DNA from: Mustelus asterias
Lineage: Eukaryota
Length of the DNA stretch: 64,000 nucleotides
Reading direction: 5' to 3'
NCBI RefSeq assembly: GCF_964213995.1
Contig: NW_027590197.1
Coordinates: 682,001-746,000 of the forward strand
Part shown: positions 4,371 to 64,000 of the stretch, piece by piece
Layout: each line of letters opens with the position of its first letter
Position numbering within the stretch: the first letter of the stretch is position 1
The notes under the pieces: generated by a model
Databases searched by the model: none
What the model saw: only the letters and a program-made list of their open reading frames with translations
What the model was told of the DNA's origin: nothing
Position numbers and translations under genes: made by a program

Positions 4371-5502
4371 TCAGACCTGGATATGATTAACAGCATCAAT
4401 AAGTGTAGAATCCAAACCTTGCAGTCCCTTGTGAACTCGCTGGTGTGTTAGCAGGTGGGATGACTGAATAAATCCCTTTCCACAGACATTACAGGTGAAC
4501 AGCCTCTCCCCAGTGTGAACTCGCTGGTGTTTCAGAAGATAAGAGAAATGAGAAAATCCCTTCCCACAGACAGAGCAGGTAAATGTGAATTTTCTGATGT
4601 GTCAGCAGGTTAGATGACTGACTGAATCCCTTCCCACACATGGAGCAGGTGAACGGCCTCTCCCCAGTGTGAACTCGCTGGTGATTCAATAGGTTGGATG
4701 AACGAGTGAATCGCTTCCCACACATGGAGCAAGTGAATGGCCTCTCCTCACTGTGAACCTGCTGGTGTGTCAGAAGGTTGTATGAACGGGTGAATCCCTT
4801 CCCACATTCAGAGCAGGTGAACGGTCGATCCCCGGTATGGAGCTGCTGGTGTATCAGAAGGTTGGATGAATTAATGAATCCCTTCCCACAGTCGGAGCAG
4901 GTGAAGGGCCTCTCCCCAGTGTGAATTCTCTGGTGGTTCAATGGGGCAGATGGGCGGCTGAATCCCTTCCCACACACACAGCAGGTGAATGGCCTCTCCC
5001 CAGTGTGAGTATATTGGTGCGTCAGCAGATCCTTTTTGTTTTTAAAGCCCTTCTCACAGTCAGAACAATTTAAAAGTTTGTTGTCAGAGTGAACAAGTTG
5101 ATGTGTCTGCAGGTGGGATGACTGAATGAATCCTTTCCCACACACAGAGCAGGTGAATGGTCTCTCCCCAGTGTGAATGCGTTGGTGTGTCAGCAGATCT
5201 TTTTTGCATTTAAAACTCTTCTCACAGTCAGAAGATGGAAACAGTCTCTCATCAGTGTGAACAAGTTGGTGTGTCACAATGTGGGATGAGCGAGTGAATC
5301 CCTTCCCACACACAGGGCAGGTGAACGGCCTCTTCCCAGTATGAACCCGTTGGTGAGTCAGAAGGTTCTGTGAATGGGTGAATCCCTTCCGACACTCGGA
5401 GCAGGTGAACGGTCTCTCCCCAGTGTGACTGCAATGAACTTCCAGTTGTGATGGGAAACCGAATCCTTTCCCGCACTCCACACATTTCCACGGTTTCTCC
5501 AT
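4371..5502 (-). pseudogene. C2H2 zinc-finger array, about 13 fingers, frameshifted paralog of 18338-19318
   Basis: MEKPWKC start and TGERP linkers; 3-bp loss in finger 1, Cys loss in finger 4, 14-bp deletion near 4585 relative to the paralog. Confidence 0.85.
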
Positions 5503-6439
5503 GGTGCGGGTGTCCTTGTGTTTCTCCAGGTTGGATGATCAGTTGAAACCTCGTCCACACACACAACATACATGTAGTTTCACTCTGCTGTGAACTGTGT
5601 GATGTTCTTTCAGACTGTGGACTGGTTAAAGCACTTTCCACAGTCAGTTCACTGGAACACTCCCAATCGGGTGTGTGTTTGTTCCAATGCTTTTCCGGTC
5701 ACACTGATGTTTAAAATCTTTGCTGACAGACAGAAGAGTCAAACATTTCTCCTCCCGCATTCAAAGACCAATGATCTTCAGCTCCAAATGAACAAAATGA
5801 CTTTGCCAGTCATGATGTTCGGTTTGAGTTTTCTGTCTACCAATCCTCCACTTCCAATATCCTGCAAAAAAAATTTGGAAAAGTCATCACTGTCAGTCCG
5901 GAATAGAAACTCTGAACAGACAATTCTAGTTTCTCCAGAACATTTTTTCCTCTCTTGTTCCCCAAAATCTGGAAATCCCCGTCCCACACACTCTCCCTCC
6001 TCCCTGGGCTTAAACCCATCTCACCATCTGCATCATTTCTTTCCTCCACTCCCAGTTTTCTCCCTCCCTCTCCTCTGTCTGGGTTCAGTTCTCCAGCTGC
6101 TGTCTGCAGACTGACAATAAAACCAATGGGTCTTACTGGGGGTGTTGGGGCCTCCAGCGGGTGTTTGTGAATCCTCCCCGCCCACCTCCCAGGGTTTCCT
6201 TCCTTCCCAGAGATCAGAGTCCTCATTGATTTGAGGCCAAAGTGTAACCTCTTATTTATTGTCCCCCTCCCCCATCCTCTGATGTGAACCATCCTCCAGT
6301 GGCTGAGCCAGGATGGGGCCGTTAACCTGGGCCTGTTCCCGGGAGGGAGGGAGGGAGAAGCCCCGCAGCTGCAAACCAGGGAGCTGACAATGATTCTGAA
6401 GGGTTTGCGGATCCACAAAGTGTTTCCAAATCCTCCCAG

Positions 6440-11314: not shown

Positions 11315-11908
11315 AATCACTTGTGAACTTGTTGGTGTCGCTGCAGGTTGGATGACCGATTGAATCCATTTCCCACACACAGAGCAGGTGAACGGTCTGT
11401 CCCCAGTGTGAACTCGCTGGTGTCTCTGCCATGTGGATGACCTCCTAAACCTCTTTGTGCAGTGAGAGCAGCTAACCAGTCTCTCGTCAGTGTGAATGGG
11501 TTGGTGGACCATCAGTTCTCGAGAGCTTTTGAAGCCACTCCCACAGTCAGAGCATTTAAAGGGTCTGTCTTGGGTGTGAGTGACCTTGTGGCTCAACAGG
11601 TTGGGCAACTGAGTGAATCCCTTCCCACACACACAGCAGGTGAACGGTCTCTCCCCGGTGTGAATGCGCTGGTCGGTCAGCAGATTGTTTAACCGAGTGA
11701 ATCCTTTCCCACACACAGAGCAGGTGAATGGTCTCTCCCCAGTGTGAACTCCCTGGTGTGTTTGTAAATGGGATAACTGAGTGAATCTCTTCCCACACAC
11801 ACAGCAGGTGAATGGTCTCTCTCCAGTGTGACTGCGCCGATGAGTTTCCAGTGCAGATGGGAACCTGAATCCTTTCCCACAGTCCCCACATTTACACAAT
11901 TTCTCTAT
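11315..11908 (-). pseudogene. C2H2 ZNF array, about 7 fingers, start lost (ACCATA); acceptor at about 12250
   Basis: ORF 11252-11944 reads RTIEKLCKC where paralogs read RTMEKPWKC; last finger frameshifted. Confidence 0.75.
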
Positions 11909-13062
11909 GGTGCGGGTGTCCTTGTGACTCTCCAGGCTTGACAATTAGTTCAGTTACAACATAACATGGGTGCGGTCTCTCTGCTGCAATGTATTTTCAG
12001 GCTGTTTAACTGGTTAAAGTTCTTTCCACAGTCACTCAGGTGTGTGCATGTTTCAGTGTGTGTGTGTCTCGGTGCTTTTCCAGTTACACTGATGTTTAAA
12101 ATCTCCTGAAGCAGACAGAGCAGAGAAATATTTCCATTCTAGATTCAAAGGTTGATGATATTCAGGTCCCAATGAACTGAGTGACTATGTTAGATTTTGA
12201 TGTGAGGTTTGGTTTGATATTCGTCTTTAAATCTTCACCTTCTGATATCCTGCAAAAGGAATTTACAAACATCATCACTGTCAGCACAGGATAGAAATTC
12301 AGAACAGACAATTCTAATTTCCAATGAACATTCTTTCCTCTCTCATCCCCAAAGCTGTGAATCTCCATCCCACACACTCTCCCTCCATTCTCACTCTGCT
12401 GTATCTAATATTCACCCTCCCAATTCTCCTGAAGGTACTGATTGAGGCTGATTGACAGATCCATGCTCACTGCTTCCTGTCCACCACACACAAATCATAA
12501 GAAACAGGAGCTGCGGTTGGCCATTCAGCCCATCGAACTGCCTCAACCATTCATTGAGAATTGGCTGATCTACCGCAGCATCATTTCCCACGCTATCCCC
12601 CAGATAGAGAGAGAATAGAGCCAATGTTTCGAGTCTGGAGGGAGGAAAGAATGTTCCATAGAAATTAGAATTGTCTGTTCTGAATTTCTATCCTGCACTG
12701 ACACTGATGACCTCTGCAAACTTGTTTTACAGGAAATTGAAAGAGGAATCACAGACCGAAATCTCAGACGTTGTGTCTAGATCTGACAGAGTCATATTCC
12801 TCGGGACCTGAATATCATCGGCCTTTAAATCAAGGAGAAATGGTTGTCCGGTCTGGTGACTTGAAAAGATTTCAAACATCAGTGTGACTGGAAAAGTGCC
12901 AACACGCTGCAACACTGGAGTGAGTGTGTTCTAGTGCATTGACTCAAGAGCTTTAACCAGTTACACAGCAATAAATATCACACCATTCACAGCGGGGGTG
13001 GGGGGACTGTTCTGTGTGTGGACGAGTGTTCAACTGAAGAGAAAGGAAAGAACACCTGCACC

Positions 13063-14310
13063 ATGGAGAAACCATGGAAATGTGGGGACTGTGGGAAGAG
13101 ATACAGAGCCCCATCAGAGCTGGAAGATCATCGGCACAGCCACACTGGGGAGAGACCATTTACTTGCTCTCAGTGTGGGGAGGGATTCACTCGGGTATCC
13201 CAGCTGCAGAGACACCAGCGAGCTCACACTGGGGAGAGGCCCTTCACCTGCTCTCAGTGTGGGAAGGGATTCACTCGGTCATCCAGCCTGCAGGCACACC
13301 AGCGAGTTCACACTGGGGAGAGACCGTTCACCTGCTCTCAGTGTGAGAAGGGGTTCAGTCAATTGGCTAACCTGCAGAGACACCAGCGAGTTCACACTGG
13401 GGAGAGGCCGTTCACCTGCTCTCAGTGTGAGAAAGGGTTCAGTCATTTAGCTAACCTGCAGAGACACCAGCGAGTTCACACAGGGGAGAGACCTTTCACC
13501 TGCTTTCAGTGTGGGAAGGGATTCACTGATTTATCCACCCTGCGGAGACACCAGCGAGTTCACACTGGGGAGTGGCCGTTCACCTGCTCTATGTGTGGGA
13601 AGGGGTTCAGTCAATTAGCTGAGCTGCAGACGCACCAGCGAGTTCACACTGGGGAGAGACCATTCACCTGCTCTCAGTGTGAGAAGGGGTTCACTGATTT
13701 ATTCACCCTGCGGACTCACCAGCGAGTTCACACTGGGGAGTGGCCGTTCACCTGCTCTGAGTGTGAGAAGGGGTTCAGTCAATTATCTAACCTGCAGAAG
13801 CACCAGCGAGTTCACACTGGGGAGAGATCGTTCACCTGTTCTCATTGTGGGAAGGGATTCACTGATTTATCCACTCTGCGGAGACACCAGCGAGTTCACA
13901 CTGGGGAGTGGCCTTTCACCTGCTCTATGTGTGGGAAGGGGTTCAGTCAATTAGCTAAGCTGGAGACCCACCAGCGAATTCACACTGGGGAGAGACCGTT
14001 CACCTGCTCTCAGTGTGGGAAGGGATTCACTGATTTATTCACCCTGCGGACTCACCAGCGAGTTCACACTGGGGAGAGGCCGTTCACCTGCTCTCAGTGT
14101 GAGAAGGGGTTCAGTCAATTATCCAACCTGCAGAAGCACCAGCGAGTTCACACTGGGGAGAGACCGTTCACCTGCTCTCAGTGCGGGAAGGGGTTCAGTC
14201 AATTATCTAACCTGCAGACGCACCAGCGCCTTCATACTGGGGAGAGACCGTTCACCTGCTCTCAGTGTGGGAAGGGGTTCAGTCAATTATCCACCCTGCG
14301 GACACACTAG
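13063..14310 (+). CDS. C2H2 zinc-finger protein, 14 full fingers; premature TAG in finger 15, ancestral stop at 14409
   Basis: ACCATGGAG start at 13063; CAC TAG CGA where paralogous fingers have CAC CAG CGA; one more finger follows in frame; acceptor TTTTACAG ends at 12732. Confidence 0.8.
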
Positions 14311-14406
<96 letters not shown>

Positions 14407-16159
14407 TGATTCCAGGGGTTGGATTCTGCTGTTATTGTTTCTGCTCTCAATTACATCCAGGACTGCATTTTGTTCATTCTCACAGTTGGTCAATGGGGAG
14501 GGTCGGAGGGTTTCTTTCTGCTGGACTGGCCGGTCTCATGACTTTGCCTCCAGTGGGCTGATGCTCTTTGAGTCTTGTTGCGAATACCTGGTTTCAGATT
14601 TCACACGGATCACAGAGTGACAGGGTGTGAGGAAGTTAAGAGTTACTATTTCTGTTTGAAACTTCCCAAATGCTCATCCAATTTCCTTTGTAATTGTTTA
14701 CTGTCTCCACTTCCTCCACCCTCGTAGGCAGCGAGTTCCAGGTCATTACCATTCACTGCATCAAAATATTCTTCCTCACATCCCCCCTTCCTCTCTGACC
14801 CAAAACCATAAATCTGTGTCCCCCTCGTCCTTCTCTCGTCAGCTAATGGGAACAGCTTTTCTTTGTCCATCTTATCTAAACCTGTCAGAATCTTGTCCAC
14901 CTCTATCAAATCTACCCTCAACCTCCTTGCTCCAAGGGGAACAACCCTAGCCTGACATTGACAATAAAGAACAAACTAACAGAATATGTTAATACCTGAA
15001 ATCAAATGGGAATGTTTAATTTCTGTTTTAAAGAAATCATGAATATATTGTCCCGTACAATAAAGGGATTTGAATAACTCAGCTTGAGTGCAGTTGAATG
15101 AAATGTCTCAATCGCGTATCCACCCACAGTCGAGAGGAAGTGTGGAATGTGTAGCTGGAAATCCCTCCCTAACAGCACTGTGGGTGTACTTACACCTTCG
15201 GCATTATAGCAGTTCAGGAAGGCAGTGTTGGCGCTGATCGTGGCCGAGGCAGCTACATACAGCCACATATTCTGTTATAACTGAAGGACTGCAGATTAAA
15301 TGTGCGGCATTATGGGACTGGACTATCTTGACCACATTCCTGTGACTGCTCAGTTTCTGCAATCATGAACCATTAAAGCTGCTTAGCAGGGTCCTGACAG
15401 AGGACCTGGTGAGAATATTTACTCAGAATGAGTGAGAATGAAACTTATTCCAGGACCGGCTGGTGTTCAGTGGCTGAGATTCCCGAATCTGTAAAAAGGG
15501 GGTCTGACCAGTGGTAGGTAGTCCGGTAAGAAGCGTTCTCATGCATTATTTAAATTATTTTATCATGAAGTTGTGATCAGAACTGTGAGGGACTTGTAAC
15601 CCAATAGTTGTTGAATTGACGGTAAACTCCAAGTAGCACTGGACTGAAAAGGGGGTCTGACCAAGAAGTGAAGTGATCTCAGGCATTGTTTAAATTACAT
15701 CATCATTGGCCAACTTCCCCTTTGTGATGTCACAATGGAGTCCTGCCTGAATCAGCCAATAGGAATCACTCTGCTCCGCGGTGACGTCTCTGGGTTCCAG
15801 TGCTCAGGCCCGGGCGCACAGACCTGGGAGCCCCGCCCCCACCCATTGTTCCCCTCCCCCTACACCACATCGAGCCAAGGTTTCCAGGCAACCGGCTGGC
15901 GGCTCCGGCCAGAGCGAGAAGCTGCTCGGTGATCTCCCCCTCCCCCCGGCCCGGGACTGCGCATGTCCAAGGGAGGGGGAAGCTGCGAATTGCAGGGCAG
16001 ATCCTGCCCCCTGACCTTCTGAGGTGTTGATTAATAGGAAGAGTTGGAGGACCGGAAGGACTCTGGTCCTCCAGCTGATCAGAGCGCGGGCTTTGCGTGA
16101 ATGAAGATTGAGCTTCAGACAGACTGAAACTTCCTCCTGTCTCCAACATCAGAGAGGTT

Positions 16160-16239: not shown

Positions 16240-17089
16240 GTTAATTCCAGCATCAAAGTGGGAAGGGGGAGGAAGGTGAGCTGTTGCCTGCCTGCCTGCT
16301 GTCGTCTGGCCTGCCTGCCTGTCGTCTGGCCTGCCTGCCGTCTGGCCTGCCTGTCTTCCGTCCGTCCGCCCACTGGAGGGTGCTCTCTCCCTGGAGGGAG
16401 AGAGGACACGGAGTGACTTTCTTTCTTTTTTCTTTCTATCTATGGGAGGGAGGACTGCACGTTTCAACATCGAGGGACTGAGTGGTTGGGCTGGTGCCCT
16501 CATCATCAGAAGGTCGGTGCCTGAAAGGGATGGGGGGGTGAAGTAAATTCAGACTGTTTTTTCCATCTGGGGGGGGGGGGCGGTGAAGACACCCCGGACT
16601 TGAACTGTTTGCGCCCAAAAGGGCTGGAGGAGTAAAGACCCCCACCCACTGCTGCTGCCCCCAACACCGGCGCCCCCAACACCGGCACCCCCTCCCCTCT
16701 TTCCCCCTGACTGGGGCACCGGCCCCCCTCCGTGCCTTGTCCCTCGTCCTCCCTCCTGCTCCTCCGACCTCCTCTCTCGCTCCGGGGAGAGAGCACCTAG
16801 ATCCCCATCCACCTACCCTACCCTCCCTTATTTTTCCCTCCTCTTATACGCCCTGCCGTGGCAGAGCCTTCTCGGCCCACCTATGCGGGCGTGGCGGCTG
16901 CCAGAGCCCCCGCCGCTCCCAAGGCCCTGCCACCTTTTTCGTTGCTCACGCGGCAGCTCGGGGTTAAGTGCTACGCCCACCCCGACATGTCCATCGAGGC
17001 CTGTGTCAAGGCAATGGCTGGGGTTGTCGGCCCCTCAGCCATTGTCGCGGCCTCTAAGATGTACGGCCGGGCCGTATTCTTTTTGAAGG
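16240..17089 (+). mobile_element. 5' end of a Tx1-clade LINE (putative 5'UTR plus ORF1 N-terminus)
   Basis: PPFSLLTRQLGVKC..SIEACVKAMAGVVGPSAIVAASKMYGRAVFFLK resembles the Tx1 ORF1 N-terminus; cut off at the duplication breakpoint; the 5' boundary is approximate. Confidence 0.7.
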
Positions 17090-17410
17090 CCACCCACCCG
17101 CCACATTTATCATTCCCCGCGCGCCGCCCTCTACCTTGTATTGTTCTCGCTTCCAAGTTGAAACCGTCCGTCCGCCGCCGCCATTACCCGCACTGCGCAT
17201 GCTTCAGGTCCCGCCCCTCATTCACTCCGATTGGTTGGAGGACCAGCCGCTCCCGCTCGGTCCTCCAGTCCCGCCCCCTCTTCCTATTGGTCCGGAGCTG
17301 GCGTCAATCAGCTCCCGGGCATTGTGATGTGGAGCATGCGCAGTGTCATTGCTGGCCTTGGCGCTTGTTTGTCCCGGAGGAGCGGAGTCAGCGTTAGGCG
17401 GTGGCTGGGA
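17090..17410. promoter_or_regulatory. CpG promoter module
   Basis: Same NRF1-like, CCAAT, GC-box and dyad layout as 6440-6760, inverted. Confidence 0.7.
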
Positions 17411-18337
17411 GGATTTGGAAACACTTTGTGGATCCGCAAACCCTTCAGAATCATTGTCAGCTCCCTGGTTTGCAGCTGCGGGGCTTCTCCCTCCCTCCCT
17501 CCCGGGAACAGGCCCAGGTTAACGGCCCCATCCTGGCTCAGCCACTGGAGGATGGTTCACATCAGAGGATGGGGGAGGGGGACAATAAATAAGAGGTTAC
17601 ACTTTGGCCTCAAATCAATGAGGACTCTGATCTCTGGGAAGGAAGGAAACCCTGGGAGGTGGGCGGGAAGGATTCACAAACACCCGCTGGAGGCCCCAAC
17701 ATCCCCAATAAGACCCATTGGTTTTATTGTCAGTCTGCAGACAGGAGCTGGAGAACTGAACCCAGACAGAGGAGAGGGAGGGAGAAAACTGGGAGTGGAG
17801 GAAAGAAATGGTGAGATGGGTTTGGATTTCAGCCCAGGGAGGAGGGAGAGTGTGTGGGACGGAGATTTACAGATTTGGGGGAACAAGAGAGGAAAAAATG
17901 TTCCAGACGAACTAGAATTGTCTGTTCAGAGTTTCTATCGTGTTCTGACAGTGATGACTTTTCTAAACTGTTTTTACAGGATATTGGAAGTGAAAGATTG
18001 GCAGACAGAAAATTCAAACCGGACATCACATCTGACAAAGTCATTCAGTTCCTTCGGAGCTGAATATCATTGGTCTTTGAATATAGAAAGAGAAATATTT
18101 GTCTGTTCTGCCTGTGGGCAAAGAAATTAAACATCAGTGTGACCGGAAAAGCATCGAGACAAACACACACCCGAGTGAGAGTGTTCCAGTGAACTGAATG
18201 TGGAAAGAGCTTTAACCAGTTACACAGCCTGAAAAAACATCACAGTTCACAGCAGGGTGAAACTACGTGTATGTTGTGTGTGTGGATGAGGCTTGAACTG
18301 ATCATCCAACCTGGAGAAACACAAGGACACCCGCACC

Positions 18338-19318
18338 ATGGAGAAACCGTGGAAATGTGTGGATTGTGGGAAGGGATTCGGTTTCCCATCACAACTGGAA
18401 GTTCATCGGCGCAGTCACACTGGGGAGAGACCGTTCACCTGCTCCGTCTGTGGGAAGGGATTCACCCATTCATACAAACTTCTGACTCACCAACGGGTTC
18501 ACACTGGGGAGAGGCCGTTCACCTGCCCTGTGTGTGGGAAGGGATTCACTCGCTCATCCCACATTGTGACACACCAACTTGTTCACACTGATGAGAGAAT
18601 GTTTACATGTTCTGACTGTGAGAAGAGTTTTAAATGCAAAAAGGATCTGCTGACACACCAACGAATTCACACTGGGGAGAGACCGTTCACCTGCTCTGTG
18701 TGTGGGAAAGGATTCATTCAGTCATCCCACTTGCAGACACATCAACTTGTTCACTCTGATAACAAACTTTTTAATTGTTCCCACTGTGAGAAAAGCTTTA
18801 AAAATAAAAAGGATCTGCTAACGCACCAATATGCTCACACTGGGGAGAGGCCATTCACCTGCTGTGTGTGTGGGAAGGGATTCAGCCGTCCATCTGCCCT
18901 ATTGAACCACCAGAGAATTCACACTGGGGAGAGGCCCTTCACCTGCTCAGACTGTGGGAAGGGATTCACTTGTTCATCCAACTTATTGAATCACCAGCGA
19001 GTTCACACTGGGGAGAGGCCGTTCACCTGCTCTGTGTGTGGGAAGGGATTCAGTCAGTCATCCAACCTGCTGACACACCAGAAAGTTCACAGTGCGGAGA
19101 GGCCATTTACCTGCTCTGTCTGTGGGAAGGGATTTTCTCATTTATCTTATCTTCTGAAACACCAGCGAGTTCACACTGGGGAGAGGCCGTTCACCTGTAA
19201 TGTCTGTGGAAAGGGATTTATTCAGTCATCCCACCTGCTAACACACCAGCGAGTTCACAAACGACTGCAAGGTTTGGATTCTACTCTTAATGATGCTGTT
19301 AATCATATCCAGGACTGA
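18338..19318 (+). CDS. Intact C2H2 zinc-finger protein, 11 fingers, no effector domain seen
   Basis: 326-aa ORF, ACCATGG start, CxxC..HxxxH repeats; acceptor TTTTTACAG ends at 17979. Confidence 0.9.
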
Positions 19319-26035: not shown

Positions 26036-27021
26036 ACCAGCAGCAGGACAGAGCTTTATGCATTTCTATGTTAAAAGCAAAATTCTGTGAGTTCTAGAAA
26101 TCTGAAATAAAAACCGAAAATGGTGGATTGCTAACCTGGACTGACAATAATGTATTTACAGGATACTCGGAGGAGAGAATTCACAATTCAAAACATTGTA
26201 TCTAGATTCAGTCGATTCATCAAGATCATTGACCTTTGAATGTGTAAAGAAGCTGTTCTGTCTGTGGGAAATTATTTCAGCTATCAATGTGTCTGGTATT
26301 TGGATATAAGACTGATAATTTCAAAATCAAGATTCCGCTTGACTGGAAATCATGACAAAGTACTGCAGATGCTGAAATCTGATGAAGGGTCATCCTGACT
26401 CGAAAAGTTGGCTCTATTCTCTGTCCACAGATGCTGTCAGACCTGCTGAGAGTTTCCAGCAGTTTCTGCTTTTGTTGTGACTGGGAATCAATGTGGGTGA
26501 GCAGGCACTGAGGTCTTGGGGCTAACTGGACTTGCTGTCATAGAGTCACACAGCACAGAAAGAGGTCCTTCAGCCCATAAGTGAACAAGCGAGGAAAAGA
26601 TGTTCCACAGCATCAGAATTGTCTATTTAGAATTTCTGTCCTGTACTTACGAGGATTCATTTTATAAACTCCTTTTACAGGCTATGAGAAAGGGAGGAAT
26701 TCCAAACAAGAACATCAAACCAAACATGACATCCAACATCTACTCACTTGATTCATCAGCGCTTGAATATTGTGAACCTTTGAATGTGGAATGAGAAATG
26801 TTTCTCTGTTTCTGTCTGAGGATTTCAAACTGAAAGTTTTGAAACAATTGACTGGAAAAGCACCGAGTGAGAGTGTTCCAGTGAACTGACTGTGGAAAGA
26901 GCTTTAACCAGTTATACAGCCTGATAAAACATCACATTATTCACAGCAAGGAGAAACCATACAGTTTGGACAAGGTTTCAACTGATTGTCCAATCTGGAG
27001 AGTCACAAGGACACTGGCATC

Positions 27022-27692
27022 ATGGAGAAACTGTGGAAATGTGGGGACTGTGGGAAGAGCTTCAATTACCCAAAGCTGAGAAAACGTTATCATTGTCACA
27101 CTGGGGAGACACCATTCACCTGCTCTGTATGTGGGAAGCGATTCACTCAGTCATCCCATCTCACTGACCATCAACTTGTACACAGTGATCAGAGACCTTT
27201 TAAATGCTCTGATTGTGAGAAGAGGTTTAAAAGCAAGAAGCATCTGGTAGCACATCAGCTTGTCCACACTGGGGAGAGGCCGTTCCTCTGCTCTGTGTGT
27301 GGGAAGAGATTCAATCGGTCATCCCACCTTCTGACACATCAGCAAGTTCACACTGGGGAGAGACCATTCCTCTGCTCTGTGTGTGGTAAGGATTCATTCA
27401 GTCATCCCAACTTCTGAGACATCAGCGAGTTCACACTGGGGAGAGGCCATTTACCTGCTCTGAGTGTGGGAAGGGATTCAGTCAGTTGTCCGACCTTCTG
27501 GTACACCAGCGAGTTCACACTGGGGAGAGGCCATTCACCTGCTCTGTGTGTCGGAACAGCTTTGCTCAGTCATCTACTCTTCAGACACACCAACGAGTTC
27601 ATACTGGAGAGAGGCCATTCACCTGCTCTGAGTGTGAGAAGGGATTCATTCAGTTATCCGACCTTCTGAGACACCAGCGAGTTCACAAATGA
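27022..27692 (+). pseudogene. C2H2 ZNF array, about 8 fingers, 1-bp frameshift near 27390
   Basis: ORFs 26986-27417 and 27486-27692; GGTAAGGATTC where other fingers have GGGAAGGGATTC; acceptor ends at 26680. Confidence 0.8.
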
Positions 27693-39590: not shown

Positions 39591-40690
39591 GTGCTCTGTA
39601 TTATTTGTACTGAAATCCATTTGCCAATCATCGGCTCACTTCCTTAACCGATCAACTGATGAAGATCCCCCTGTATATATATATATTTCCAGACGTCTCT
39701 TCCCTCAGAGGGCTGTTAGTCTTTTGGATTTCTCTTCTACAGGGACCAGTGGAGGCTGAGGATCATTGAATATATTCCAGTTAGACAGATCTTTGACTGA
39801 CAAGGGTGTCAAGGGTTATGGGGAACAGACAAGAAGATGGAGCAAAAGCTAAGATGTGGGGGGATTTCTTCACTCAAGGATGTGGTAAAGCTTTGGAATT
39901 CTCAATCCCTGAGGACAGTGAAACCTCAGTCATCAACTACTTGCAAGAGAGCGATTGATTGGTTTTTAGATATTGAGGATATCAAGGGATATGGGTTTAG
40001 TGTGGGGAGAATGATGCTGAGGTAGATGAACGAATTATCTCATTGAATAGTTTAAAAGGCTCGATGGGCCAAATGGCCGACTGCAGCTCCTATTTGTTAT
40101 GGTCTCTGTGTCCAGGACAAGAAGCAGTGAGCATGGATCTGTCAATCAGCACCTTCAGGAGAATTGGGAGGGTGAATATTAGATACAGCAGAGTGAGAAT
40201 GGAGGGAGAGTGTGTGGGATGGCGATTTACAGCTTCTTGGGACTGAAATAGGAAAGAATGTTCGATAGAAACTAGAATTGTCTGTTCTGAATTTCTATCC
40301 TGTACTGATACTGATGACTTTTGTAAACTTGTTTTACAGGATATTGAAAGAGGAATCACAGGCCGAAATCTCAAACGTCACGTCTAGATCTGACAGAGTC
40401 ATATTCCATGGGAGCTGAAAATCATCGGCCTTTGAATCTAGAAGGAGAAATGGTTGTCCAGTCTGTTGATTTGAAAAGATTTCAAACATCAGTGTGACTG
40501 GAAAAGCACCAACACACGGCCACACTGGAGTGAGAGTCTTCCAGTGCACTGACTAAAGAACTTTAACCAGTTACACAGCCTGAATAACTATCACACCATT
40601 CACAGCGGGGAGAGACTGTACCCGTGTTCTGTGTGTGAACAAGGCTTCAACTGATTGTCCACCCAAGGGAGAGGCAAGGACACCTGCACC

Positions 40691-41701
40691 ATGGAGAAAC
40701 CATGGAAATGTGCGGACTGTGCGAAGAGATACAGATACCCAAATGAGCTGGAAGCTCATCGGCGCAACCACATTGGGGAGAGGCCATTCACCTGCTCTCA
40801 GTGTGGGAAGGGATTCACTCGGTTATCCATCCTGCAGTCACACCAGCGAGTTCACACTGGGGAGAGACCGTTCACCTGCTCTCAGTGTGGGAAGGGATTC
40901 ACTCAGTTATCCACCCTGCAGAAACACCAGCGAGTTCACACTGGGGAGAGGCCATTCACCTGCTCTCAGTGTGGGAAGGGATTCACTCGGTTATCCATCC
41001 TGCAGTCACACCAGCGAGTTCACACTGGGGAGAGGCCGTTCACCTGCTCTCAGTGTGGGAAGGGATTCTGTGATCCATCCAGCCTGCGGATACACCAGCG
41101 GGTTCACACTGGGGAGAGGCCATTCACCTGCTCTCAGTGTGAGAAGGGATTCTGTAATCCATCCAGCCTGCTGAGACACCAGCGAGTTCACACTGGGGAG
41201 AGGCCGTTCACCTGCTCTCAGTGTGGGAAGGGATTCTATGATTCATCCAGCCTGCGGATACACCAGCGGGTTCACACTGGGGAGAGGCCATTCACCTGCT
41301 CTCAGTGTGGGAAGGGATTCACTTGGTCAAACCAGCTGCAGAGACACCAGCGAGTTCACACTGGGGAGAGGCCATTCACCTGCTCTCAGTGTGGGAAGGA
41401 ATTCACTCGGTCATCCCAGCTGCAGAGACACCATGAAGTTCACACTGGGGAGAGGCCATTCACCTGCTCTCAGTGTGGGGAGGGATTCACTCAGTCATCC
41501 CACCTGCTGAGACACCAGCGAATTCACACTGGGGAGAGGCCGTTCACCTGCTCTCAGTGTGAGAAGGGATTCACTCGATTATCCAGCCTGCGGATACACC
41601 AGCGAGTTCACACTGGGGAGAGGCCATTCACCTGCTCTCAGTGTGGGAAGGGATTCAGTCTTTCATCCCAGCTGCTGAGACACCAACGAGTTCACGAGTG
41701 A
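40691..41701 (+). CDS. Intact C2H2 zinc-finger protein, 12 fingers
   Basis: ACCATGGAG at 40691; [10 protein letters not shown] repeats; acceptor ends at 40339. Confidence 0.9.
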
Positions 41702-49625: not shown

Positions 49626-50547
49626 TCACTTGTGAACTTGTTGATGTCTCAGGAGCCATTGTGACTGAGTGAATCCCTTCCCACACACAGAGTAGTTGAA
49701 TGGCCTCTTAGTGTGAGTGCGTTGGTGAGCCAGCAGGTTGAAAGACTGCGAATCCTTTCCCACACACGGAGCAAGTGAATGGCCTCTCCCCTGTGTCAAC
49801 TCGCTGGTGAGCAGAGAGGTTGGATGGCCGATTGAATCCCTTCCCACACACTGAGCATGTGAATGGTCTTTCTGCAGTGTGAGTGCGTCGGTGAGCAGTG
49901 AGGTTGGATGACTGCCTGAAATTCTTTCCACAGTCAGTGCAGCTGAATGGCTTCTCTTCAGTGTGAATTTTCTGGTGTCTCAGCAGGGTGGGTAAAACTG
50001 TGAATCCCTTTCCACACACAAAGCAAGTAAACGGTCTCTCCCCAGTGTGAATTCGCTGGTGTGCAACGAGGGAGGATGCCTGTCTGAAACTCCGTCCACA
50101 GTCAGTGCAGCTGAATGGCTTCTCCTCAATGTGAACTCGCTGATGTGACAGTAAGTGGGATGACCCAGTGAATCCCTTCCCACAGTCGGAGCAGGTGAAC
50201 GGCCTCTCCCCAGTATGAACTCGCTGGTGTGACAGCAGGTGGAATGACTGAGTGAATCCCTTCCCACACACGGAGCAGATGAATGGTCTCTCCCCGGTGT
50301 GAGTGCGTTGGTGCACAGTGAGTGCTGAAGAATGCCTGAATCTCTTCCCACAGGAGGTGCAGGTGAATGGCTTTTCCTCAGTGTGAATTCTCTGGTGAGA
50401 CCAAAGGCCCGATGACTGAATGAATCCCTCCCCACAGACAGAACAGGTGAACGGTCTCTCACCAGTGTGACTGCGCCGATGGTTTTCCAGCAGGGAAGGG
50501 AAACTGAATCCTTTCCCACAGTCCCCACATTTCCACGGTTTCTCCAT
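49626..50547 (-). pseudogene. C2H2 ZNF array, about 11 fingers; first 8 intact, frameshift in finger 10
   Basis: ORF 49708-50547 MEKPWKC..; the tail continues in the 49626 frame; acceptor at about 50880. Confidence 0.75.
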
Positions 50548-51105
50548 GGTGCTGGTGTCCTGATGTTTCTCCAGGTTAAACGATCAGTTGAAGCCTCATC
50601 CACACACAGAACACGTGTATAGTTTCTCCTTGCTGTGAATGGTGTGATGTTTTTTCAGGCTGTGTAACTGGATAAAGCTCTTTCCACAGTCAACTCACTG
50701 AAACACTCTCACTCGGGTGTGCGTGTAACTTGGTGCTTTTTCAGTCACACTGATGTTTGAAATCTTCTCCTCCAGACAGAAGACAAACATTTCTCCTTCC
50801 ACATTCAAAGTCTGAGGATATTTAAGTCCAAGTGAATTGAGACTCTGTCTGATTTTGATGTGATGTTTCTTCACCTCACCTGTAAAAGGAGTTTACAAAA
50901 TTAATCACTGTCAGTCCAGGATAGAAATTTTGAACAGGCAATTCTAATTCTCTGGAACATTTCTTCCTCTCTTGTTCCCCAAATCAATAAATTCCTGTCC
51001 CACAAACTCTCCCTCCTCCCTGGGCTGAAATCCAAACCCACCTCACAATTTCTTTTCTCCACTCCCAGTTTGCTCCCTCCCTCTCCTCTGTCTGGGTTCA
51101 GTTCT

Positions 51106-63674: not shown

Positions 63675-64000
63675 TCTCTGTGTCCAGGACAGGAAGCAGT
63701 GAGCACGGATCTGTCAATCAGCCTCAATCAGCACCTTCAGGAGAATTGGGAGGGTGAATATTAGATACAGCAGAGTGAGAATGGAGGGAGAGTGTGTGGG
63801 ATGGAGATTTACAGCTTTTGGAGAATAAGAGAGGAAAGAATGTTCCAGAGAAACTACAATTGTTCTGAATTTCTATCTTGTAATGACACTGATCACTTTT
63901 GTAAACTCCTTTTACAGGATATTGGAAGGGGAGGATTTACAGACAGAAATCTCAAACCTAATGTCACATCAACATCTGACATCCTCACTCAATTCATCGG
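63675..64000 (+). other. Conserved intron-end/acceptor block of a further ZNF cassette that runs off the window
   Basis: Homologous to 40105-40400 and 12200-12480; CCTTTTACAG|GATATT with the exon starting at 63918. Confidence 0.8.

What the first reader, a model, noticed from the sequence alone, without database searches (positions are those of the whole stretch)
17980..18345. 5' leader is three fossil zinc fingers, and the start codon appears to come from a TGEKP linker
Seen: between the acceptor and the ATG the sequence reads as dead fingers (FVCSACG.., [34 protein letters not shown]). ACC ATG GAG AAA CCG then sits exactly where the linker ACT GGG GAG AAA CCG would be, giving an ideal ACCATGG Kozak context. 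The same fossil leader, with signature words CAGTGTGACTGGAAAAGCA and CTTTAACCAGTTACACAGC, precedes the arrays near 5.6, 12.0, 12.9, 26.9, 40.5, 50.7 and 53.0 kb. Inference: the family descends from an N-terminally decapitated ancestor rescued by a new start, and the dead fingers are kept as UTR, possibly with a regulatory role.
Basis: partly seen in the sequence, partly recalled or inferred. Interest (0 to 1): 0.7.

Follow-up and report, generated by a model that had tools for sequence, protein, structure and literature searches.

The report
Shark zinc-finger genes restarted mid-array
Hundreds of zinc-finger genes in a shark-like genome carry the broken remains of their own first fingers in front of a methionine codon that sits where a living sister family has an ordinary finger linker, so the proteins likely start there; two of the dead fingers change about half as fast as the DNA beside them, which may reflect gene conversion or a new regulatory role.

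Summary
Confirmed. 17980-18337 holds remains of C2H2 fingers: F2 and F3 clear, F1 weak in this copy. A stop 39 nt before the ATG at 18338 is shared family-wide (TGA or TAA in 67 of 73 non-redundant paralogs). F2 is in frame with the ATG in only 16 of 63, so the leader cannot be read into the array. A living sister family in the same genome (type B) has the same acceptor and pre-finger leader, an intact F3, sense codons at the stop site (15 of 15) and a TGEKP-type linker where type A has ATG. Its own start matches 18083. So the ancestor likely lost fingers; no lost effector exon was found, and 'rescue' as an order of events is unproven. Dead F2-F3 diverges at 0.49x the intron rate without codon periodicity, but at 0.76x (0.60-0.97) in recent duplicates, so conversion and cis-constraint are both open. 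No usable RNA evidence; splicing and start site are untested. The scan noted this family before on other DNA of this genome (e1-9534447, e1-9551152); the outgroup and rate tests are my additions. A new variant of effector-less tandem ZNF clusters; moderate interest.

The parts
17978..17979 (+). Putative splice acceptor AG of the exon carrying leader and array
   Evidence: Sequence; 14 of 20 pyrimidines upstream; same position in type A and type B consensus. Use in RNA not shown.
17980..18082 (+). Pre-finger leader, shared with sister type B; evolves near the intron rate
   Evidence: A/B consensus alignment; 6.9 vs 7.6-7.7 changes per site
18083..18085 (+). Codon homologous to the type B start (ATA here); likely the ancestral start
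   Evidence: alignment; in 63 type A paralogs CTA 21, GTG 17, ATG 2, ATA 1, rest other. Ancestral status inferred.
18098..18171 (+). Fossil finger 1 with TAA (18128) and family-wide TGA (18140), followed by a short CA repeat
   Evidence: TGA in 54 and TAA in 3 of 63 at the second site; finger score 3.9 bits, not above shuffles in this copy
18172..18253 (+). Fossil finger 2; first Cys codon is TGA (18190), out of frame with the ATG here; slowest-changing part of the leader
   Evidence: 23.4 bits vs shuffle maximum 5.9; Pfam E=4.4e-4; 3.3 changes per site
18254..18337 (+). Fossil finger 3 and decayed linker; TGA at 18287 and family-wide TGA at 18299-18301
   Evidence: 17.4 bits; 76 TGA vs 1 non-T match genome-wide in one context; intact in type B
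18338..18340 (+). Likely start codon in ACC-ATG-G context, at the Gly position of the finger linker
   Evidence: 555 of 600 genome-wide pattern matches have ATG; type B consensus has ACC GGG here. Initiation itself untested.
18338..19318 (+). Finger-only ORF, 326 aa, 11 C2H2 fingers
   Evidence: same length in 26 of 30 near-identical loci
17200..17400 (+). Probable promoter and non-coding first exon (CCAAT-type and NRF1-type words, labels recalled); donor not fixed
   Evidence: Sequence; ORF 17162-18127 has no Pfam hit at E<=10. Inferred.
5480..5931 (-). Paralog leader, ATG 5502
   Evidence: 88% identity
10935..11141 (+). Internally deleted paralog leader, ATG 11120
11887..12319 (-). Paralog leader, start reads ATA (11908)
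12653..13084 (+). Paralog leader, ATG 13063
26615..27043 (+). Paralog leader, ATG 27022
40270..40712 (+). Paralog leader, ATG 40691
50526..50958 (-). Paralog leader, ATG 50547; F2-F3 still in frame with the ATG, broken by three TGA codons
52774..53210 (+). Paralog leader, ATG 53189
63842..64000 (+). Start of a further leader, cut by the window end

Best explanation
The leader is the broken front of an older zinc-finger array, shared by hundreds of paralogs, and translation likely starts at a Met that replaced the linker Gly before the first surviving finger. Shown: finger homology of F2-F3, shared stops, frequent frameshifts, and a sister family (type B) that keeps F3 and a TGEKP-type linker. 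Inferred history: an ancestor started at the codon matching 18083 and read F1-F2-F3 and on; type B deleted F1-F2 and kept that start; the type A founder lost that start, gained stops in F1 and F3 (CGA to TGA, a CpG change) and used the linker Met, whose ACC and G context came free from the Thr and Glu codons. The founder then amplified by segmental duplication. The leader is probably 5' UTR scanned past weak upstream ATGs. The slow change of F2-F3 is, in my estimate, most likely homogenisation among paralogs (about 50%), next a cis-element under selection (35%), then local mutation rate (15%).
For: Finger scores. Stop site TGA 65 and TAA 2 of 73; 76 TGA vs 1 non-T genome-wide, so no CGA in that context, which fits one ancestral event. 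F2 in frame with the ATG in 16 of 63; all 9 distinct in-frame copies found carry at least one stop. Type B: sense codon at the stop site in 15 of 15 (CAA 9, CGA 3, CGG, CAG, CCA); Gly 4, Arg 4, Glu 3, Lys 2, other 2 at the ATG site; consensus aligns to type A except for one gap over F1-F2. Codon signal begins at the ATG: 0-fold/4-fold changes 4.45/9.45 in the first coding finger vs 3.55/4.75 in F2-F3. Array pN/pS 0.31-0.35 in young pairs. This copy's three upstream ATGs: two in weak context overlap the ORF, one is a 5-codon uORF. A horn shark protein model has the same pre-finger and linker-Met peptides. For homogenisation: the F2-F3 ratio rises towards 1 in younger pairs, 0.49 deep, 0.66, 0.74, 0.83; 7 of 18 supported splits conflict between 5' and 3' leader, control 2 of 11 (small numbers).
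Against: No RNA, ribosome or protein evidence. Two in-phase AGs (18315, 18324) lie between the stop and the ATG, so a splice from an upstream coding exon is not excluded; the horn shark model skips F1-F3 in a similar way. ATG retention is the same in copies with long and with broken arrays (43 of 48 vs 23 of 25) and no better than neighbouring codons. Avoidance of new upstream ATGs in F2-F3 is not significant (40 vs 65 expected, p=0.052; 23 vs 33, p=0.19 in the set not picked by pattern). Most type B loci were fetched with a pattern that barred T at the first two bases of the linker codon, so the absence of ATG there is partly by construction. Pairs chosen by intron similarity give 0.46-0.62 in all five bins, which fits steady constraint rather than conversion.
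Confidence: 0.75

Rival explanations
1. Dead fingers 2-3 were co-opted as a family-wide cis-element (a DNA site bound by a family member or chromatin recruiter, or an RNA element controlling translation) and are under purifying selection.
For: F2-F3/intron ratio 0.49 (bootstrap 0.42-0.56) and lower for all four bases; slower on terminal (4.13 vs 7.49) and internal (0.89 vs 1.95) branches; still 0.76 (0.60-0.97, p=0.024) in 46 pairs alike on both flanks; in type B the 4-fold sites of the same F3 DNA change at the pre-finger rate (2.0 vs 2.0, only 13 sites); a promoter-fused derivative drops intron, pre-finger and F1 but keeps F2-F3. Analogy: human ZNF 3' exons carry H3K9me3 on their own (PMC3039671, abstract).
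Against: 0.83 (0.54-1.29) in the youngest pairs, where coding selection is already visible; indels in the F2 core are about as dense as upstream (27 vs 36 per 100 nt); no fold (z=-0.5), no Rfam match; no bound factor identified.
Confidence: 0.3
2. The mature mRNA skips the fossil part: an upstream coding exon splices to an AG just before the linker Met, which is then an internal residue.
For: In-phase AGs at 18315 and 18324; the last 39 nt have few indels (2 in 38 copies, 5 per 100 nt vs 27-36 upstream); horn shark model P0002 has such a shape.
Against: Their pyrimidine tracts are weaker (11 and 9 of 20 vs 14); no Pfam domain in the upstream ORF; type B uses the upstream acceptor position and has an ATG in the same exon; the promoter-fused derivative shows no intron before F2; P0002 is a computed model.
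Confidence: 0.1
3. The TGA codons are read through (or as selenocysteine), or a CTG at -27 starts a short extension, so part of the leader is still translated.
For: Most shared stops are TGA; AACCTGG at -30 in 51 of 73 copies is an in-frame CTG in good context.
Against: 47 of 63 copies are frameshifted between F2 and the ATG; no codon periodicity in F2; type B has CGA at the same sites, so CpG decay explains TGA; 7 copies replace the CTG context.
Confidence: 0.05

Closest known systems
KRAB and SCAN C2H2 zinc-finger gene clusters of mammals (PMC2443715, passages read)
   Same: Clustered, fast-duplicating tandem arrays in one exon; loss of N-terminal parts by deletion or degeneration is described as a recurrent theme.
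   Different: What is lost here is fingers inside the array exon, not a KRAB or SCAN exon, and the truncated form founded the dominant family (35 of 39 arrays in the stretches read, 1 type B, 3 unclear; stretches chosen near type A hits).
Human ZNF252 (PMC2865497, passages read)
   Same: Complete and degenerate fingers lie in an untranslated region after a stop; disrupted N-terminus.
   Different: There the dead fingers are in the 3' UTR of one gene; here they are 5' of the start and fixed across hundreds of copies.
FiNZ-ZNF genes of cyprinid fish (PMC10547256, passages read)
   Same: Lineage-specific fish expansion of hundreds of tandem ZNF genes.
   Different: FiNZ is a 28-aa domain on its own exon; no such coding exon was found here. 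The main text has no mention of shark, cartilaginous or chondrichthyan; its supplements were not read and may cover such genomes.
Type B sister family of this genome (start MEGKS) and annotated horn shark 'zinc finger protein 530-like' (P0002)
   Same: Same acceptor region, pre-finger leader and KPWKC finger.
   Different: Type B lacks F1-F2, keeps F3 and the upstream Met; P0002 is a type A-like model that omits F1-F3.

Membership tests
Tandem C2H2 (Kruppel-type) zinc-finger genes | Tandem C-x2-C-x12-H-x3-H fingers with TGEKP-like linkers | tested here: met
   11 fingers in 18338-19318; Pfam PF00096 above cut-off for the first finger
Tandem C2H2 (Kruppel-type) zinc-finger genes | Array under purifying selection | tested here: met
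   pN/pS 0.31-0.65 by divergence bin
Tandem C2H2 (Kruppel-type) zinc-finger genes | Sequence-specific DNA binding | not testable with these tools
   No binding data
KRAB-ZNF | KRAB domain on upstream exons in frame with the array | tested here: not met
   In-frame stop 39 nt before the ATG; no Pfam hit in the upstream ORF. The genome-wide PF01352 search found nothing but its controls did not ring either, so it is uninformative. PMC8455134 (passage) lists KRAB among families lost in cartilaginous fishes.
FiNZ-ZNF | 28-aa acidic N-terminal domain on its own exon | tested here: inconclusive
   No FiNZ model was run; the stop blocks any exon spliced at 17980, but the cryptic AGs are untested
Coding sequence turned 5' UTR | Homology to coding sequence with shared disabling lesions | tested here: met
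Coding sequence turned 5' UTR | Present in mature mRNA upstream of the used start | tested here: inconclusive
   One search runs are of unknown kind and show no GT-AG joint among those listed
Conserved cis-regulatory element | Slower than neutral, no codon periodicity, explained by selection | tested here: inconclusive
   Slow and non-periodic, but selection and conversion are not separated

The most novel reading that the evidence does not exclude
A vertebrate zinc-finger family of hundreds of genes was founded by restarting translation inside its own array, and it then co-opted two of the discarded fingers as a shared 170-nt control element in front of every member: a family barcode by which one factor or RNA could govern the whole cluster.
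Probability: 0.25. Interest if true: 0.72.

Novelty: new variant of a known kind. Interest (0 to 1): 0.42.

Why it matters
Cartilaginous fish are reported to lack KRAB genes, yet this genome holds a very large cluster of finger-only genes. The fossil leader and the living sister family date and explain how the dominant branch arose, and give a marker for correcting gene models that bridge the stops. If F2-F3 proves to be a selected element, it would be a case of protein-coding remains reused as a family-wide regulatory tag, testable with one reporter. If it is conversion, it maps where paralogs exchange sequence next to arrays that must stay diverse.

Tried and rejected
RNA evidence: no RNA holder on record was listed. 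Contigs of X19, X20, X21 and X1 show no GT-AG joint among the 15 listed (12 more not shown); intron and exon contigs of the near-identical copies have similar depth, so the runs may be DNA; contig starts at 17978 could be paralog branching. Not used as evidence. No further read evidence was obtained. Metagenome scan for the F2 word: 0. Protein searches: 11 hits, one from a shark; the read-through leader query gave 1 candidate, none significant, so rays and chimaeras are untested. RNA structure rejected, Rfam none. KRAB search uninformative. Near-identical clusters: 31/1838 vs 43/1980, p=0.29, with intron counts inflated by non-homologous patches. Pairs chosen by array similarity alone gave 0.74, 0.94, 0.51, 0.32, open to linkage bias, hence. 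Singleton counts were equal across regions (0.68-0.82 per site), but are insensitive at these rates, so I used them neither way; linkage values there were all near background. A test of changes back towards the family consensus, which would bear on conversion, was not completed. Selenocysteine or read-through rejected on frameshifts. Mobile-element reading of the gene rejected: shared blocks run over several genes and up to the full 20 kb compared. Literature: 8 searches found no description of this leader or start; the library lacks most subscription papers, and no supplements were read.

Full report
Setting. The window is a cluster of finger-only C2H2 genes among LINE fragments (repeat labels recalled). 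It lies in a 3.68-Gb assembly; the leader has 3,618 first-look candidates, and the 40 scored are 99-100% identical. Ten such loci share multi-gene blocks with the window at about 94-99%, one over the full 20 kb compared, so the copies come from segmental duplication. The one shark hit of a protein search, a horn shark model, has the same pre-finger and linker-Met peptides; 'shark-like' rests on that. Whether it is another species than this genome was not determined.

Observation. The acceptor, the three peptides and the ATG are as described. Against a profile of internal fingers, F2 and F3 score 23.4 and 17.4 bits and the best of 300 shuffles 5.9; F1 scores 3.9 in this copy and 8.2 in the consensus. 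So two fingers are clear and the third is seen mainly through the family. All seven other listed arrays have the leader, one with ATA for ATG.

The leader is dead across the family. Of 139 full copies, 63 were non-redundant below 95%; a later set gave 73 of 159. The codon 39 nt before the ATG is TGA in 65 and TAA in 2 of 73. Genome-wide, one 33-base context has 76 TGA matches and 1 match without T at the first two positions. Recurrent CpG decay would leave CGA and CAA copies; CAA was seen once and CGA never in 63, so one ancestral event is the simpler reading. A second TGA in F1 is in 54 of 63, and F2 is in frame with the ATG in 16 of 63. In 360 kb plus the window, 35 of 39 arrays show this leader, 1 is type B and 3 could not be classed (the stretches were chosen near type A hits).

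The start comes from the linker. Type B was found and extended (51 pattern matches). Its consensus aligns with type A through acceptor, pre-finger region, F3 and the first shared finger, with a single gap over F1-F2. F3 is intact in most, the stop site is a sense codon in 15 of 15, and the consensus reads ACC GGG GAG AAA CCG where type A reads ACC ATG GAG AAA CCG. The pattern that fetched most type B loci excluded ATG, so the Gly/Glu/Arg/Lys spread shows what is tolerated, not a frequency. Type B starts at a Met that matches 18083, and continues with a half finger (His plus linker), which points to deletion in B from a three-finger ancestor (inference). The old start therefore probably lay in the same exon, and nothing here shows a lost effector exon. 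Since AAG and AGG occur in type B and are one step from ATG, a harmless internal Met may have preceded the stops; the order is open.

Is the ATG used? 555 of 600 pattern matches keep it. The 0-fold/4-fold contrast appears at the first coding finger (4.45/9.45) and is weak in F2-F3 (3.55/4.75; 16 four-fold sites), and arrays are under purifying selection. Against: the ATG is kept equally in long and broken arrays, and no better than its neighbours; two in-phase AGs lie after the stop; RNA data were not usable.

Is the leader neutral? In part. Pre-finger and F1 change at about the intron rate; F2-F3 at 0.49 of it (0.42-0.56), also in the 40 copies not picked by pattern (2.4 vs about 4.0 changes per site). 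There is no periodicity, fold or Rfam match, and indels are tolerated. Pairs chosen by intron similarity give 0.46-0.62; pairs alike on both flanks give 0.83, 0.74, 0.66 with rising age, 0.76 (0.60-0.97) overall. The trend with age, while coding selection is already strong in young pairs, favours homogenisation or a younger module; the ratio below 1 in recent pairs, the type B control and the retention of F2-F3 in a promoter-fused derivative keep selection alive. I could not separate them.

Comparison. Loss of N-terminal parts is a recurrent theme in mammalian ZNF clusters (PMC2443715, passages), and human ZNF252 has dead fingers in its 3' UTR (PMC2865497, passages). Cyprinid FiNZ genes are the nearest fish expansion (PMC10547256, passages). 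KRAB is reported lost in cartilaginous fishes (PMC8455134, passages; PMC11603059, passages, places the first KRAB-ZNF in bony fish ancestors). PMC3039671 was read as abstract and outline; PMC10208646 (passages) added nothing. Eight searches found no account of this leader. Earlier notes of this scan describe the same family on other DNA; they are leads, not support. My look-ups by sequence and by words for a sister family returned nothing, but only a few lines of each note are shown.

Verdict. Real and well supported as evolutionary anatomy; the mechanism (stops plus a downstream Met) is ordinary, its scale and the living outgroup are not. Regulatory co-option is possible but unproven. New variant of a known kind; interest 0.42.

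Noticed in passing
L085, L089, L093, L095 and others on G000:C23; one copy near C71:18.18 Mb: A derivative in which a CCAAT-rich promoter-like stretch is joined at the CA repeat directly to fossil F2, with no intron, pre-finger or F1.
   Followed up: partly
window 7549-27947 and G000:C165, C71, C87, C118 and others: The multi-gene block is duplicated many times at 94-99% identity; another copy of the focal gene lies 65,246 bases downstream on the same contig. Some copies may be assembly duplicates.
   Followed up: partly
window 16800-17090: Fragment resembling the start of a Tx1-type ORF1 (label recalled) just upstream of the probable promoter; earlier scan notes report Tx1 insertions at ZNF first exons.
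   Followed up: no
window 16020-16110 and 17200-17345: Two related promoter-like stretches in opposite orientation upstream of the gene (by eye).
   Followed up: no
window 17740-17810: Possible small exon with an AG before it and a strong GTGAGA donor after it; its final ATG would open a 28-codon upstream ORF if spliced to 17980 (from the sequence).
   Followed up: no
window 18299-18337: The last 39 nt before the ATG have few indels (5 per 100 nt vs 27-36 upstream in 38 copies), and an in-frame CTG in good context sits at -27 in 51 of 73 copies.
   Followed up: partly
window 18095 (ATA here): 38 of 63 paralogs have an ATG at the start of fossil F1, which would give a short upstream ORF ending at the F1 stops.
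   Followed up: no
L151, L174, L178: One type B subfamily also has a Met in the same linker, two codons later, while keeping its upstream finger: internal linker Mets are tolerated.
   Followed up: no
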